From NCBI RefSeq assembly GCF_011045215.1, contig NZ_CP049201.1: a stretch of 64,000 nt of DNA; one strand, given 5' to 3'. The notes under the pieces were generated by a model, which searched no databases, was not told the DNA's origin, and saw only the letters and a program-made list of their open reading frames with translations. Positions 25,976 to 30,762 of the stretch are shown here, in pieces (position 1 is the stretch's first letter; each line of letters starts with the position of its first letter). The position numbers and the translations under genes are program-made. The stretch is from Escherichia coli. Its GTDB lineage: Bacteria > Pseudomonadota > Gammaproteobacteria > Enterobacterales > Enterobacteriaceae.

Positions 25976-27340
25976 ATGAGCGATAATGACACTATCGTAG
26001 CCCAGGCCACGCCTCCGGGACGTGGCGGCGTTGGCATCCTGCGCATCTCCGGCTTCAAAGCCCGTGAAGTTGCCGAAACCGTGCTGGGTAAACTGCCTAA
26101 GCCGCGCTACGCCGATTATCTTCCGTTTAAAGACGCCGACGGCAGCGTGCTCGATCAGGGGATTGCGCTATGGTTCCCTGGCCCGAACTCGTTCACCGGC
26201 GAAGATGTGCTGGAACTGCAAGGTCATGGCGGTCCGGTGATCCTCGACCTGCTGTTAAAACGCATTCTGACCATTCCCGGCCTGCGGATTGCTCGCCCTG
26301 GTGAGTTTTCCGAACGCGCGTTTCTTAACGATAAACTCGACTTAGCCCAGGCCGAGGCGATTGCCGATCTTATTGATGCCAGTTCGGAACAGGCAGCCCG
26401 TTCGGCACTTAACTCGCTGCAAGGCGCATTCTCCGCACGGGTCAACCATCTGGTGGAAGCCCTCACCCACTTGCGCATTTACGTCGAAGCGGCAATTGAT
26501 TTCCCCGATGAAGAGATCGATTTCCTCTCCGACGGAAAAATTGAAGCCCAGCTTAATGACGTGATTGCCGATCTCGATGCAGTGCGTGCTGAAGCACGTC
26601 AGGGTAGTTTGTTGCGCGAAGGGATGAAGGTGGTGATTGCCGGACGTCCTAATGCCGGTAAATCGAGCCTGTTAAACGCGCTGGCGGGCCGTGAAGCGGC
26701 AATCGTAACCGATATCGCCGGAACCACGCGTGACGTGCTGCGTGAGCATATCCATATTGACGGAATGCCGCTGCATATCATCGATACCGCCGGGCTACGT
26801 GAAGCCAGTGACGAAGTTGAACGTATTGGGATCGAGCGCGCGTGGCAGGAAATTGAACAGGCCGACCGCGTGCTGTTTATGGTCGATGGCACCACGACAG
26901 ACGCCGTTGATCCGGCAGAGATCTGGCCGGAATTTATCGCCCGTCTGCCAGCGAAACTGCCGATCACCGTGGTGCGCAATAAAGCCGATATCACCGGCGA
27001 AACGCTGGGAATAAGTGAAGTGAACGGTCACGCGTTAATTCGTCTGTCTGCAAGGACTGGCGAAGGCGTGGACGTGCTGCGTAACCATCTCAAACAGAGC
27101 ATGGGCTTTGACACCAACATGGAAGGCGGCTTCCTGGCGCGCCGTCGCCACTTACAGGCGCTGGAACAAGCGGCGGAACATCTACAACTGGGCAAAGCGC
27201 AACTGTTGGGAGCCTGGGCAGGTGAACTGCTGGCGGAAGAGTTGCGCCTGGCGCAGCAGAACTTAAGCGAAATCACCGGGGAATTTACCTCTGACGACCT
27301 GCTGGGGCGGATTTTCTCCAGCTTCTGTATCGGTAAGTAA
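25976..27340 (+). CDS. mnmE: tRNA modification GTPase MnmE, 454 aa
   Basis: G-domain motifs ([16 protein letters not shown]) and C-terminal CIGK. Confidence 0.97.
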
Positions 27341-27582
27341 CCTCGCTTACGAAGCCGCATTCTGACTGTCAGATGCGGCTTCGCTTCATTGTTAGCACTC
27401 CTGTTATTCCTCAACCCTTTTTTTAAACATTAAAATTCTTACGTAATTTATAATCTTTAAAAAAAGCATTTAATATTGCTCCCCGAACGATTGTGATTCG
27501 ATTCACATTTAAACAATTTCAGAATAGACAAAAACTCTGAGTGTAATAATGTAGCTTCGTGTCTTTCGAGGATAAGTGCATT

Positions 27583-27657
27583 ATGAATATCTTACATATA
27601 TGTGTGACCTCAAAATGGTTCAATATTGACAACAAGATTGTCGATCACCGCCCTTGA
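27583..27657 (+). CDS. tnaC: tna operon leader peptide TnaC, 24 aa
   Basis: atgaatatcttacat... translates to MNILHICVTSKWFNIDNKIVDHRP-stop, with the regulatory Trp codon at position 12. Confidence 0.88.
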   Translation: MNILHICVTSKWFNIDNKIVDHRP

Positions 27658-27877
27658 TTTGCCCTTCTGTAGCCATCACCAGAGCCAAACCGATTAGATT
27701 CAATGTGATCTATTTGTTTGCTATATCTTAAATTTGCCTTTTGCAAAGGCCATCTCTCGTTTATTTACTTGTGTTAGTAAATGATGGTGCTTGCATATAT
27801 ACATGGCGAATTAATGGATATTGCAGATGCAATATTCACAGGGATCACTGTAATTAAAATAAATGAAGGATTATGTA
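27658..27877 (+). promoter_or_regulatory. tna leader spacer (Rho-dependent attenuation region) between tnaC and tnaA
   Basis: ~220 nt untranslated, low-GC spacer between the TnaC stop and the tnaA start; role follows established tna regulation. Confidence 0.6.
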
Positions 27878-29293
27878 ATGGAAAACTTTAAACATCTCCC
27901 TGAACCGTTCCGCATTCGTGTTATTGAGCCAGTAAAACGTACCACTCGCGCTTATCGTGAAGAGGCAATTATTAAATCCGGTATGAACCCGTTCCTGCTG
28001 GATAGCGAAGATGTGTTTATCGATTTACTGACCGACAGCGGCACCGGGGCGGTGACGCAGAGTATGCAGGCCGCGATGATGCGCGGCGACGAAGCTTACA
28101 GCGGCAGCCGCAGCTACTATGCGTTAGCCGAGTCAGTGAAAAATATCTTTGGTTATCAATACACCATTCCGACTCACCAGGGCCGTGGTGCAGAGCAAAT
28201 CTATATTCCGGTACTGATTAAAAAGCGCGAACAGGAAAAAGGCCTGGATCGCAGCAAAATGGTGGCGTTCTCCAACTATTTCTTTGATACCACGCAGGGC
28301 CATAGCCAGATTAACGGCTGTACCGTGCGTAACGTCTATATCAAAGAAGCCTTCGATACGGGCGTGCGTTACGACTTTAAAGGCAACTTTGACCTTGAGG
28401 GATTAGAACGCGGTATTGAAGAAGTTGGTCCGAATAACGTGCCGTATATCGTTGCAACCATCACCAGTAACTCCGCAGGCGGTCAGCCGGTTTCACTGGC
28501 AAACTTAAAAGCGATGTACAGCATCGCGAAGAAATACGATATTCCGGTGGTAATGGACTCTGCACGCTTTGCTGAAAACGCCTATTTCATCAAGCAGCGT
28601 GAAGCAGAATATAAAGACTGGACCATCGAGCAGATCACCCGCGAAACCTACAAATATGCCGATATGCTGGCGATGTCCGCCAAGAAAGATGCGATGGTGC
28701 CGATGGGCGGCTTGCTGTGCATGAAAGACGACAGTTTCTTTGATGTGTACACCGAGTGCAGAACCCTTTGCGTGGTACAGGAAGGCTTCCCGACGTATGG
28801 CGGCCTGGAAGGCGGCGCGATGGAGCGTCTGGCCGTAGGTCTGTATGACGGCATGAATCTGGACTGGCTGGCTTATCGTATTGCGCAGGTGCAGTATCTG
28901 GTCGATGGTCTGGAAGAGATTGGCGTTGTCTGCCAGCAGGCGGGCGGTCACGCGGCATTCGTTGATGCCGGTAAACTGTTGCCGCATATCCCGGCAGATC
29001 AGTTCCCGGCACAGGCGCTGGCCTGCGAGCTGTATAAAGTCGCCGGTATCCGCGCGGTAGAAATTGGCTCTTTCCTGTTAGGCCGCGATCCGAAAACCGG
29101 TAAACAACTGCCATGCCCGGCAGAACTACTGCGTTTAACCATTCCGCGCGCAACATATACTCAAACACATATGGACTTCATTATTGAAGCCTTCAAACAT
29201 GTGAAAGAGAACGCGGCGAATATTAAAGGATTAACCTTTACCTACGAACCGAAAGTATTGCGTCACTTCACCGCAAAACTGAAAGAAGTTTAA
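27878..29293 (+). CDS. tnaA: Tryptophanase, 471 aa
   Basis: [31 protein letters not shown]... full-length. Confidence 0.97.
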
Positions 29294-29383
29294 TTAATAC
29301 TACAGAGTGGCTATAAGGATGTTAGCCACTCTCTTACCCTACATCCTCAATAACAAAAATAGCCTTCCTCTAAAGGTGGCATC

Positions 29384-30631
29384 ATGACTGATCAAGCTGA
29401 AAAAAAGCACTCTGCATTTTGGGGTGTTATGGTTATAGCAGGTACAGTAATCGGTGGAGGTATGTTTGCTTTACCTGTTGATCTTGCCGGTGCCTGGTTT
29501 TTCTGGGGTGCCTTTATCCTTATCATTGCCTGGTTTTCAATGCTTCATTCCGGGTTATTGTTATTAGAAGCAAATTTAAATTATCCCGTCGGCTCCAGTT
29601 TTAACACCATCACCAAAGATTTAATCGGTAACACCTGGAACATTATCAGCGGTATTACCGTTGCCTTTGTTCTCTATATCCTCACTTATGCCTATATCTC
29701 TGCTAATGGTGCGATCATTAGTGAAACGATATCAATGAATTTGGGTTATCACGCTAATCCACGTATTGTCGGGATCTGCACAGCCATTTTCGTTGCCAGC
29801 GTATTGTGGATAAGCTCGTTAGCCGCCAGTCGTATTACCTCATTGTTCCTCGGGCTGAAGATTATCTCCTTTGTGATCGTGTTTGGTTCTTTCTTCTTCC
29901 AGGTCGATTACTCCATTCTGCGCGATGCCACCAGCTCCACTGCGGGAACGTCTTACTTCCCGTATATCTTTATGGCTTTGCCGGTGTGTCTGGCGTCATT
30001 TGGTTTCCACGGCAATATTCCCAGCCTGATTATTTGCTATGGCAAACGCAAAGATAAGCTAATCAAAAGCGTGGTCTTCGGTTCGCTGCTGGCGCTGGTG
30101 ATTTATCTCTTCTGGCTCTATTGCACCATGGGGAATATTCCGCGAGAAAGCTTTAAGGCGATTATTTCCTCAGGCGGCAACGTTGATTCACTGGTGAAAT
30201 CGTTCCTCGGCACCAAACAGCACGGCATTATCGAGTTTTGCCTGCTGGTGTTCTCCAACTTAGCTGTCTCCAGCTCGTTTTTTGGTGTCACGCTGGGGTT
30301 GTTCGATTATCTGGCGGACCTGTTTAAGATTGATAACTCCCACGGCGGGCGTTTCAAAACCGTGCTGTTAACCTTCCTGCCACCCGCGTTGTTGTATCTG
30401 ATCTTCCCGAACGGCTTTATTTACGGGATCGGCGGTGCCGGACTGTGCGCCACTATCTGGGCGGTCATTATCCCCGCGGTGCTGGCAATCAAAGCTCGCA
30501 AAAAGTTTCCCAATCAGATGTTCACGGTCTGGGGCGGCAATCTTATTCCGGCGATTGTCATTCTCTTTGGTATAACCGTAATTTTGTGCTGGTTCGGCAA
30601 CGTCTTTAACGTGTTACCTAAATTTGGCTAA
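29384..30631 (+). CDS. tnaB: Low-affinity tryptophan permease, 415 aa
   Basis: Polytopic aromatic amino acid permease directly downstream of tnaA. Confidence 0.95.
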   Translation: MTDQAEKKHSAFWGVMVIAGTVIGGGMFALPVDLAGAWFFWGAFILIIAWFSMLHSGLLLLEANLNYPVGSSFNTITKDLIGNTWNIISGITVAFVLYILTYAYISANGAIISETISMNLGYHANPRIVGICTAIFVASVLWISSLAASRITSLFLGLKIISFVIVFGSFFFQVDYSILRDATSSTAGTSYFPYIFMALPVCLASFGFHGNIPSLIICYGKRKDKLIKSVVFGSLLALVIYLFWLYCTMGNIPRESFKAIISSGGNVDSLVKSFLGTKQHGIIEFCLLVFSNLAVSSSFFGVTLGLFDYLADLFKIDNSHGGRFKTVLLTFLPPALLYLIFPNGFIYGIGGAGLCATIWAVIIPAVLAIKARKKFPNQMFTVWGGNLIPAIVILFGITVILCWFGNVFNVLPKFG

Positions 30632-30762
30632 ATCCTTCAAGAAGCCAGTCATTCGCTGGCTTCTTGCCTCTCAGGAAATCACACATGTCCAAATGGCAAC
30701 TCGCCTGATCCTCCTTCACCACGTATGCTTTGCGTCACCTTACTATCAGGACGCTTTAGCCC

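What the first reader, a model, noticed from the sequence alone, without database searches (positions are those of the whole stretch)
27583..27877. tnaC leader peptide and attenuation spacer
The 24-codon leader MNILHICVTSKWFNIDNKIVDHRP with Trp12 and C-terminal Pro24 is intact, followed by a ~220-nt spacer before tnaA. This is the classical tryptophan-induced ribosome-stalling / Rho-antitermination arrangement. It is reported because it is absent from the ORF track.
Basis: partly seen in the sequence, partly recalled or inferred. Interest (0 to 1): 0.2.

Follow-up and report, generated by a model that had tools for sequence, protein, structure and literature searches.

The report
Standard E. 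coli tnaC tryptophanase leader
This is the well-known 24-codon tnaC leader gene and its 220-base spacer in front of the E. coli tryptophanase operon, intact and essentially the same as in the laboratory strain K-12, so it is an ordinary, already explained feature.

Summary
The ATG is at 27583. It is followed by 24 codons (MNILHICVTSKWFNIDNKIVDHRP) and a TGA at 27655-27657. A 220-nt untranslated spacer (27658-27877) follows, and the tnaA ATG is at 27878.

The peptide matches Pfam Tna_leader (71 bits, cut-off 25) and TIGR02616. It is identical over 24/24 residues to the TnaC chain of PDB entry 6i0y, deposited as tryptophanase operon leader peptide. RefSeq annotates it as tnaC in every E. coli record inspected, and the region is present in 5419 of 5426 complete genomes.

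Against K-12, the 560-nt mnmE-tnaA intergenic region has 14 substitutions and no indels. Within tnaC the only difference is a synonymous Lys18 change (AAA>AAG). The stretch from that codon through the stop codon and the proximal spacer (rut region, Spot42 pairing site) is identical to K-12, as are the CRP palindrome and core promoter. TnaA is 100% identical to K-12 and TnaB is 413/415.

Seven of the 14 substitutions cluster at 27802-27830. They belong to a common E. coli allele, exact in 312 genomes including O157:H7, that forms a stable hairpin which K-12 lacks. I found no evidence that this matters.

The feature is already known and of low interest.

The parts
27492..27507 (+). CRP (CAP) binding palindrome TGTGATTCGATTCACA of the tna promoter
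   Evidence: This is the only match to TGTGA-N6-TCACA in the 64-kb window; 0.06 are expected by chance. It is identical to K-12 and invariant in 11 E. coli haplotypes. Catabolite control of tna transcription initiation is described in PMC10941005 and PMC8429421.
27520..27558 (+). Core tna promoter region (K-12-type allele; extended -10-like TGtAATAAT at 27542-27550)
   Evidence: 27396-27555 is identical to K-12. The simple sigma-70 scan finds no + strand site, which fits an activator-dependent promoter. The position is inferred from identity to K-12 and from my recollection of a 319-nt K-12 leader transcript, which would put the TSS near 27559. That recollection was not verified here.
27568..27572 (+). 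Shine-Dalgarno GAGGA of tnaC
   Evidence: Read directly from the sequence, 10 nt upstream of the ATG. It is invariant in 11 haplotypes.
27583..27657 (+). tnaC coding sequence: 24 codons plus a TGA stop (Trp12 27616-27618, Asp16 27628-27630, Ile19 27637-27639, Pro24 27652-27654, stop 27655-27657)
   Evidence: Supported (sequence and translation; Pfam, 71 bits; TIGR02616, 44 bits; PDB 6i0y, 24/24; annotated tnaC, WP_001364348.1). The only difference from K-12 is 27636 A>G, a synonymous change in Lys18.
27649..27657 (+). boxA-like sequence CGCCCTTGA overlapping the end of tnaC
   Evidence: Identical to K-12. Its designation as boxA-like comes from my memory of Konan & Yanofsky 2000, which is cited in PMC10941005 and PMC8429421 but is not held in the library.
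27658..27708 (+). Proximal spacer: the Rho utilisation (rut) region immediately after the stop codon
   Evidence: 100% identical to K-12. It has the lowest variability of the leader transcript upstream of the tnaA translation-initiation region, with 1 variable site in 51 nt among 11 haplotypes. C exceeds G, 13 versus 7, in the first 40 nt. [quoted passage not shown]
27683..27695 (+). Predicted Spot42 sRNA pairing core AGCCAAACCGATT
   Evidence: In the duplex prediction this stretch forms 13 paired bases (6+7 with one bulge) with Spot42 AAUCGGAUUUGGCU. The Spot42 sequence was verified at 100% in 5424 genomes. [quoted passage not shown] The site is identical in all 11 haplotypes.
27658..27877 (+). 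220-nt untranslated tnaC-tnaA spacer, where RNA polymerase pauses and Rho terminates
   Evidence: The length comes and is the same as in K-12 (PMC7186457). The spacer has no intrinsic-terminator-like site and no Rfam family match.
27815..27838 (+). Allele-specific 10-bp hairpin in the distal spacer (UGGAUAUUGC-AGAU-GCAAUAUUCA); not known to be functional
   Evidence: Predicted at -10.8 kcal/mol in the window versus -0.9 in K-12, and also present in the whole-leader fold. It results from 5 of the 7 clustered substitutions at 27802-27830. The allele is exact in 312 genomes.
27865..27870 (+). Shine-Dalgarno GAAGGA of tnaA
   Evidence: Read directly from the sequence. The last 47 nt before tnaA are invariant in 11 haplotypes.
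27878..29293 (+). tnaA, tryptophanase (471 aa)
   Evidence: TIGR02617 scores 1010 bits. The protein is 471/471 identical to K-12 TnaA.
29384..30631 (+). tnaB, low-affinity tryptophan permease (415 aa)
   Evidence: NF007235 scores 924 bits. The protein is 413/415 identical to K-12 TnaB.

Best explanation
This is the regulatory leader of the E. coli tnaCAB (tryptophanase) operon, in its standard form.

The mechanism is taken from the literature on the identical K-12 sequence. Transcription starts at a CRP-dependent promoter when glucose is scarce. A ribosome translates the 24-codon tnaC while RNA polymerase pauses in the 220-nt spacer.

At low tryptophan, RF2 releases TnaC at the UGA stop and the ribosome leaves. 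The C-rich rut site just after the stop codon is then exposed. Rho loads and terminates transcription in the spacer before tnaA.

At high tryptophan, one free L-Trp binds in the exit tunnel next to Trp12 and Asp16 of the nascent peptide. Hydrolysis of TnaC-tRNA(Pro) by RF2 is blocked. [quoted passage not shown]

Shown here: all sequence elements are present and are identical or synonymous to K-12.

Inferred, not tested: the stalling and the Rho-dependent termination themselves.
For: The peptide sequence and the critical codons are intact. Family profiles score above their curated cut-offs. The peptide is 24/24 identical to the TnaC chain of PDB 6i0y. The same bases are annotated as tnaC, with protein accession WP_001364348.1, in K-12, in a 100%-identical record (strain 33F4) and in 8 other strains.

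There are 14 substitutions and no indels in 560 nt versus K-12, and 27637-27731 and 27396-27555 are identical. Among 11 haplotypes, all 5 polymorphic sites within the 24 codons are third-position and synonymous. The rut-proximal spacer is nearly invariant, at 0.02 variable sites per nt, against 0.19 in the distal spacer.

The CRP palindrome is unique in the window. The spacer has no intrinsic terminator. TnaA is 100% and TnaB 99.5% identical to K-12. The mechanism is described in PMC8429421, PMC10941005 and PMC12360218.
Against: Nothing in the sequence argues against it. Three caveats apply. First, function was not assayed. Second, 13 non-coding substitutions relative to K-12 exist: two near the transcription start and 5' UTR (27556, 27566), two just downstream of mnmE (27343, 27395), and nine in the mid and distal spacer, including a stabilised hairpin at 27815-27838. 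Their quantitative effect on basal read-through or tnaA translation is unknown. Third, the exact promoter and TSS position is inferred from identity to K-12, because the consensus scan did not find it.
Confidence: 0.97

Rival explanations
1. The leader is the tna leader, but this strain's non-K-12 spacer allele changes how it behaves quantitatively. The allele is the substitution cluster at 27802-27830, which creates a stable 10-bp hairpin about 40 nt upstream of the tnaA start. It might alter polymerase pausing or Rho release sites, L4 binding, or tnaA translation efficiency.
For: The hairpin is predicted at -10.8 kcal/mol in the window versus -0.9 in K-12. The whole-leader fold is more stable than shuffles for the window (z -1.73) but not for K-12 (z -0.18). 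The spacer is a documented target of further regulators, L4 (PMC7186457) and Spot42 (PMC5748587).
Against: The allele is common. It is exact in 312 genomes, and 2018 of 5426 genomes gave a megablast match to the 61-nt allele at 95% identity or more. The hairpin forms in 8 of 11 sampled haplotypes and a weakened one in a ninth, so K-12 is the odd one out. No pair shows changes on both sides, only one-sided strengthening or disruption. The canonical regulation was defined in K-12, which lacks the hairpin, so the hairpin is not required. The tnaA translation-initiation region, the last 47 nt, is invariant.
Confidence: 0.1
2. The 24-codon ORF is a chance ORF, or a decayed remnant without regulatory function.
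For: Short ORFs are abundant by chance: 87 ORFs of at least 20 aa overlap a 6-kb stretch.
Against: The peptide is identical to the studied TnaC, and profile E-values reach 3.7e-20. Across 11 haplotypes the polymorphism within the 24 codons is 5 synonymous and 0 non-synonymous sites. The position upstream of intact tnaA and tnaB is conserved.
Confidence: 0.005
3. The spacer encodes an additional small protein, for example the 36-aa ORF 27781-27891 that overlaps the tnaA start, or the 38-aa ORF 27741-27857.
For: Both ORFs stay open in all 11 haplotypes.
Against: In ORF 27781-27891, 9 of the 12 variable sites fall at codon positions 1 or 2 and change the amino acid. Seven of its first 17 residues vary among the haplotypes. 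That is the opposite of the pattern seen in tnaC. No Shine-Dalgarno evidence was examined. The ORFs stay open partly because their 3' halves lie in the invariant tnaA initiation region.
Confidence: 0.02

Closest known systems
E. coli K-12 tnaC leader and tnaCAB attenuator (Pfam PF08053, TIGR02616; PDB 6i0y, 4uy8)
   Same: The 24-aa peptide is identical and has the same UGA stop. The boxA-like and rut-proximal sequence is identical. The spacer is 220 nt in both. The CRP site and core promoter are identical. TnaA is identical.
   Different: There are 14 single-base substitutions in 560 nt. One is a synonymous change in Lys18. Two lie at 27556 and 27566, around the transcription start and 5' UTR. 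Nine lie in the mid and distal spacer, and seven of those cluster at 27802-27830. The haplotype is a mosaic: a K-12-type core promoter joined to an O157:H7-type 5' UTR and spacer.
E. coli BL21 / strain C type tna leader allele
   Same: Same TnaC peptide, same 220-nt spacer and same operon layout.
   Different: That allele ends tnaC with TAA instead of TGA and has TTTACCC instead of TTTGCCC just after the stop. It is found at 99% identity or more in 1744 of 5389 genomes. The window carries the TGA form.
speFL ornithine-sensing leader (E. coli/Salmonella)
   Same: Same logic: a small-molecule-dependent arrest of a ribosome on a leader ORF shields a rut site and prevents Rho-dependent termination (PMC12360218, PMC8429421).
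   Different: The peptide, the ligand (ornithine), the release factor (RF1) and the operon are all different. There is no sequence relationship to the ORF here. This comparison rests on the literature only.
trpL-type attenuation (trp operon leader)
   Same: Both are short leader peptides with Trp codons that couple translation to transcription termination upstream of tryptophan-related genes.
   Different: trpL senses charged tRNA(Trp) through tandem Trp codons, alternative hairpins and an intrinsic terminator. Here there is a single Trp codon, which is not the sensor of tRNA charging, and no terminator-like hairpin with a U-run in the spacer. Termination is Rho-dependent according to the literature.

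Membership tests
TnaC tryptophanase leader peptide (PF08053 / TIGR02616) | Profile match above the curated cut-off | tested here: met
   Pfam scores 71.1 bits against a cut-off of 25, covering 1-24 of 24. TIGR02616 scores 44.3 bits against 23.55.
TnaC tryptophanase leader peptide (PF08053 / TIGR02616) | Critical residues Trp12, Asp16, Ile19 and Pro24 present with K-12 spacing | tested here: met
   The codons are TGG 27616-27618, GAC 27628-27630, ATT 27637-27639 and CCT 27652-27654. The residue list comes from PMC10941005.
TnaC tryptophanase leader peptide (PF08053 / TIGR02616) | Stop codon directly after Pro24 (UGA, read by RF2) | tested here: met
   TGA at 27655-27657. The role of UGA and RF2 is described in PMC8429421.
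TnaC tryptophanase leader peptide (PF08053 / TIGR02616) | Located upstream of tnaA-tnaB on the same strand | tested here: met
   tnaA is at 27878-29293 and tnaB at 29384-30631, both on the + strand.
TnaC tryptophanase leader peptide (PF08053 / TIGR02616) | Purifying selection on the peptide | tested here: met
   Five polymorphic sites within the 24 codons in 11 haplotypes, all third-position and synonymous. All 10 annotated records carry the same protein accession.
TnaC tryptophanase leader peptide (PF08053 / TIGR02616) | L-Trp-dependent ribosome arrest at the stop codon | not testable with these tools
   Inferred from 24/24 identity to the TnaC chain of PDB 6i0y and to the peptide whose stalled-ribosome complexes are described in PMC8429421.
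tna-type Rho-dependent leader attenuator | rut site (and boxA-like sequence) immediately at and after the tnaC stop codon | tested here: met
   27637-27731 is 100% identical to K-12. C exceeds G, 13 versus 7, in the first 40 nt of the spacer. The region is nearly invariant among haplotypes. This is membership by identity to the characterised sequence; Rho binding was not assayed.
tna-type Rho-dependent leader attenuator | Long untranslated spacer (220 nt in K-12) without an intrinsic terminator | tested here: met
   The spacer is 220 nt. There is no terminator-like site in 27658-27877. The K-12 length is given in PMC7186457.
tna-type Rho-dependent leader attenuator | Termination in the spacer depends on Rho and is relieved by tryptophan | not testable with these tools
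   Known only from the literature on K-12 (PMC12360218, PMC8429421).
CRP-activated promoter | Consensus CRP palindrome TGTGA-N6-TCACA upstream of the transcription start | tested here: met
   A perfect palindrome lies at 27492-27507, and it is unique in the window.
trpL-type (hairpin/intrinsic terminator) attenuator | Tandem regulatory codons plus an intrinsic terminator hairpin with a U-run after the leader ORF | tested here: not met
   There is a single Trp codon and no terminator-like site downstream of tnaC. The feature is therefore not filed under this family.
Rfam cis-regulatory RNA families | Covariance-model match in the leader | tested here: not met
   No match with E-value up to 1 in 27000-28300 on either strand. 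The scan found no Rfam family matching this leader.

The most novel reading that the evidence does not exclude
The natural allelic variation of the tna leader may be functionally meaningful. This window combines a K-12-type core promoter with an O157:H7-type 5' UTR and spacer, and the spacer carries a stable distal hairpin at 27815-27838 that K-12 lacks. Such variation could tune basal read-through, pausing, L4 or sRNA control, or tnaA translation, and hence indole output, between E. coli lineages.
Probability: 0.08. Interest if true: 0.25.

Novelty: already known. Interest (0 to 1): 0.05.

Why it matters
It matters only as an annotation point. tnaC is a genuine, functional 24-codon gene that length-thresholded ORF callers miss. 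Its presence shows that this strain keeps the standard tryptophan-inducible, catabolite-repressed control of indole production. Nothing here challenges or extends current understanding of the tna attenuator.

Tried and rejected
(1) An Rfam scan of 27000-28300 at E-value up to 1 found nothing; no Rfam family matches this leader.

(2) The consensus sigma-70 scan found no + strand promoter. Its single promoter-like hit was on the - strand inside tnaC (27608..27580), at a rate below the shuffle expectation, so I dismissed it. The only terminator-like hit (27301-27322) lies inside the mnmE coding sequence and was also dismissed.

(3) I tested the distal-spacer hairpin for conservation or covariation. 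It is strong in 8 of 11 haplotypes, weakened in one more and disrupted in K-12 and strain 222. Changes are one-sided only, so there is no evidence of selection for structure.

(4) I tested the spacer ORFs 27781-27891 and 27741-27857 as possible small proteins. Their substitutions are mostly non-synonymous, so I rejected them.

(5) A 5' UTR hairpin (27555-27573) is weakened in this allele, from -8.6 to -4.4 kcal/mol. Its 5' arm probably lies at or upstream of the transcription start, so I drew no conclusion.

(6) An unconstrained Spot42-leader duplex prediction gave an unrealistically long duplex. I kept only the 13-nt core that matches the region mutated in PMC5748587.

(7) Konan & Yanofsky 2000 (PMC94583) and the RF2-preference paper (PMC6916493) are not held. 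The boxA and rut boundaries therefore rest on my memory and on secondary citations.

(8) I did not run scans of metagenome or genome collections, structure prediction or large protein searches. The identity of the feature was already settled and those runs are costly.

Full report
**Observation.** The ATG is at 27583. It is followed by 24 codons translating to MNILHICVTSKWFNIDNKIVDHRP and a TGA at 27655-27657. The other two residues the literature calls critical are also intact: Asp16 is GAC at 27628-27630 and Ile19 is ATT at 27637-27639 (residue list from PMC10941005). The tnaA start codon ([11 protein letters not shown]...) is at 27878, so the untranslated spacer 27658-27877 is exactly 220 nt. 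A GAGGA Shine-Dalgarno sequence lies at 27568-27572, 10 nt before the ATG.

A 24-codon ORF is not unusual in itself, since 87 ORFs of at least 20 aa overlap 26000-32000. The mechanical ORF list shows this one only as part of a GTG-started 32-aa ORF, 27559..27657. This explains why a length-thresholded ORF track omits it.

**Identity.** The peptide matches Pfam PF08053 (Tna_leader) over its full length at 71.1 bits against a cut-off of 25, with E=3.7e-20. It matches NCBIfam TIGR02616 (tnaC_leader, equivalog) at 44.3 bits against a cut-off of 23.55. It is 24/24 identical to chain 7 of PDB 6i0y, deposited as tryptophanase operon leader peptide, and identical to the 20 residues of the chain in 4uy8.

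The downstream genes are tryptophanase and the TnaB permease. Tryptophanase scores 1010 bits on TIGR02617 and is 471/471 identical to K-12. TnaB scores 924 bits on NF007235 and is 413/415 identical to K-12. The upstream gene is mnmE. This is the K-12 gene order rnpA-yidD-yidC-mnmE-tnaC-tnaA-tnaB-mdtL.

The 560-nt mnmE-tnaA intergenic region is found in 5419 of 5426 complete E. coli genomes, annotated as 'tnaC: tryptophanase leader peptide'. It is 100% identical in strain 33F4 (calf, Switzerland) and 97.5% identical in K-12 MG1655.

**Base-by-base comparison with K-12.** There are 14 substitutions and no indels.
- In tnaC the only difference is 27636 A>G, a synonymous change in Lys18 (AAA>AAG).
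- 27637-27731 is identical. This covers the rest of tnaC, the stop codon, the boxA-like CGCCCTTGA (a name I recall from Konan & Yanofsky 2000, a paper not held) and the first 74 nt of the spacer, where the rut site lies (PMC8429421, PMC12360218).
- 27396-27555 is also identical. It includes the perfect CRP palindrome TGTGATTCGATTCACA at 27492-27507, the only such site in the window against 0.06 expected by chance. It also includes the -10 region.
- The remaining differences are 27343 and 27395 (just after mnmE), 27556 and 27566 (around the transcription start and 5' UTR), 27732, 27750 and 27773 (mid spacer), and a cluster of seven at 27802, 27803, 27816, 27818, 27822 and 27830.

**Population context.** I aligned this leader with ten other E. 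coli haplotypes: K-12, O157:H7, C, BL21 and six others. All have a 220-nt spacer with no indels, and all encode the same TnaC, with accession WP_001364348.1 in every annotated record. Within the 24 codons there are five polymorphic sites (27621, 27627, 27633, 27636, 27648). All five are third-position and synonymous, which is the signature of purifying selection on the peptide.

Variable-site density (variable sites per nt) by segment is:

| Segment | Coordinates | Density |
|---|---|---|
| 5' UTR | 27559-27582 | 0.04 |
| tnaC | 27583-27657 | 0.08 |
| rut-proximal spacer | 27658-27708 | 0.02 |
| mid and distal spacer | 27709-27830 | 0.19 |
| last 47 nt before tnaA | 27831-27877 | 0 |

So the parts that the established mechanism needs are the conserved parts.

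**The substitution cluster at 27802-27830.** This cluster is not a peculiarity of this strain. The 61-nt segment 27790-27850 is exact in 312 genomes, including O157:H7 and O55:H7. In all, 2018 of 5426 genomes gave a megablast match at 95% identity or more.

In this allele the bases 27815-27838 form a 10-bp hairpin predicted at -10.8 kcal/mol. K-12 and one other haplotype have a disrupted version at -0.9 kcal/mol. The hairpin also appears in the whole-leader fold (versus 13). It is stable (-8.8 to -10.8 kcal/mol) in 8 of the 11 haplotypes and weakened (-4.9) in a ninth, but I saw no two-sided compensatory changes. The canonical regulation was worked out in K-12, which lacks the hairpin. I therefore treat it as neutral polymorphism until shown otherwise.

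The window's haplotype is a mosaic. Its core promoter (27533-27549) is the K-12 type, found in about 1600 genomes, while about 3700 genomes carry the other type. Its 5' UTR, tnaC and spacer are the O157:H7 type. This explains why only 19 genomes match the whole 560 nt at 99% identity or more.

**Mechanism.** The mechanism is established for the identical K-12 sequence and is inferred here by identity. Transcription initiation is under catabolite control. RNA polymerase pauses in the spacer while tnaC is translated.

Without tryptophan, RF2 releases TnaC at UGA, the ribosome leaves, Rho binds the exposed rut site and terminates transcription before tnaA. With tryptophan, a single L-Trp binds in the exit tunnel beside Trp12 and Asp16. 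Residues 23 and 24 keep the GGQ loop of RF2 out of the peptidyl-transferase centre. The stalled ribosome masks the rut site and tnaA and tnaB are transcribed (PMC8429421, PMC10941005, PMC12360218).

Two sequence results fit Rho-dependent rather than hairpin-type attenuation. The spacer contains no intrinsic-terminator-like site, and C exceeds G just after the stop codon.

Two further published layers of control also find their substrate intact. Spot42 pairs with the intergenic region (PMC5748587). The predicted 13-nt core AGCCAAACCGATT at 27683-27695 pairs with Spot42 AAUCGGAUUUGGCU (Spot42 sequence verified) and is invariant. Ribosomal protein L4 binds the 220-nt spacer (PMC7186457).

**Rivals.** A chance ORF is excluded by the identity and selection data. 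A second small protein in the spacer is unlikely: the two ORFs there stay open, but 9 of the 12 variable sites in the 36-aa ORF are at codon positions 1 or 2 and change the protein. A quantitative effect of this spacer allele cannot be excluded, but nothing supports it.

**Verdict.** This is the textbook tnaC leader, already annotated in RefSeq. Novelty: already known. Interest: low.

Noticed in passing
Homologous position of window 27655-27661 in loci L004 (strain C) and L005 (BL21): About a third of E. coli genomes carry a tna leader allele in which tnaC ends with TAA instead of TGA, and the first spacer bases read TTTACCC instead of TTTGCCC. The BL21-type 101-nt allele is at 99% identity or more in 1744 of 5389 genomes. 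The literature stresses RF2 and UGA for TnaC arrest, so this natural stop-codon polymorphism may be worth a look. The window itself has TGA.
   Followed up: partly
window 27533-27549: The core-promoter region is dimorphic in E. coli. The window and K-12 share ...AAAAACTCTGAGTGTAATAATG, found in roughly 1600 genomes. Most strains, roughly 3700 genomes, have ...TTCTTGAGTATTATACTG. The window joins the K-12-type promoter to an O157:H7-type 5' UTR and spacer, a mosaic that is exact over 27492-27582 in only 6 genomes.
   Followed up: partly
window ~27490 (junction just upstream of the CRP site); loci L010, L011: In about 790 complete E. coli genomes, similarity to the window stops about 2 nt upstream of the CRP palindrome. 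In the two such records inspected, a ShET2/EspL2-family type III effector gene (intact or frameshifted) lies just upstream of the tna promoter. The window lacks this insertion.
   Followed up: partly
locus L012 (strain AH62), homologous to window ~27385-27915: An IS1 element has replaced the tna promoter, tnaC, the spacer and the first codons of tnaA. This leaves a 5'-truncated tnaA annotation without its leader.
   Followed up: no
window 27350-27383: A long near-perfect inverted repeat, CGAAGCCGCATTCTGAC-T-GTCAGATGCGGCTTCG, lies 10 nt after the mnmE stop codon. It is probably the mnmE transcription terminator or an RNA-stabilising hairpin. It was not picked up by the terminator scan, which requires a short loop and a T-run.
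   Followed up: no
window 27555-27573: A small hairpin, CUUCG-N7-CGAGG, overlaps the tnaC Shine-Dalgarno sequence. In this allele it is weakened to -4.4 kcal/mol by C>T at 27556, which creates a G.U pair. It is -8.6 in K-12 and -7.1 in most strains. Its 5' arm may lie upstream of the transcription start, so its relevance is uncertain.
   Followed up: partly
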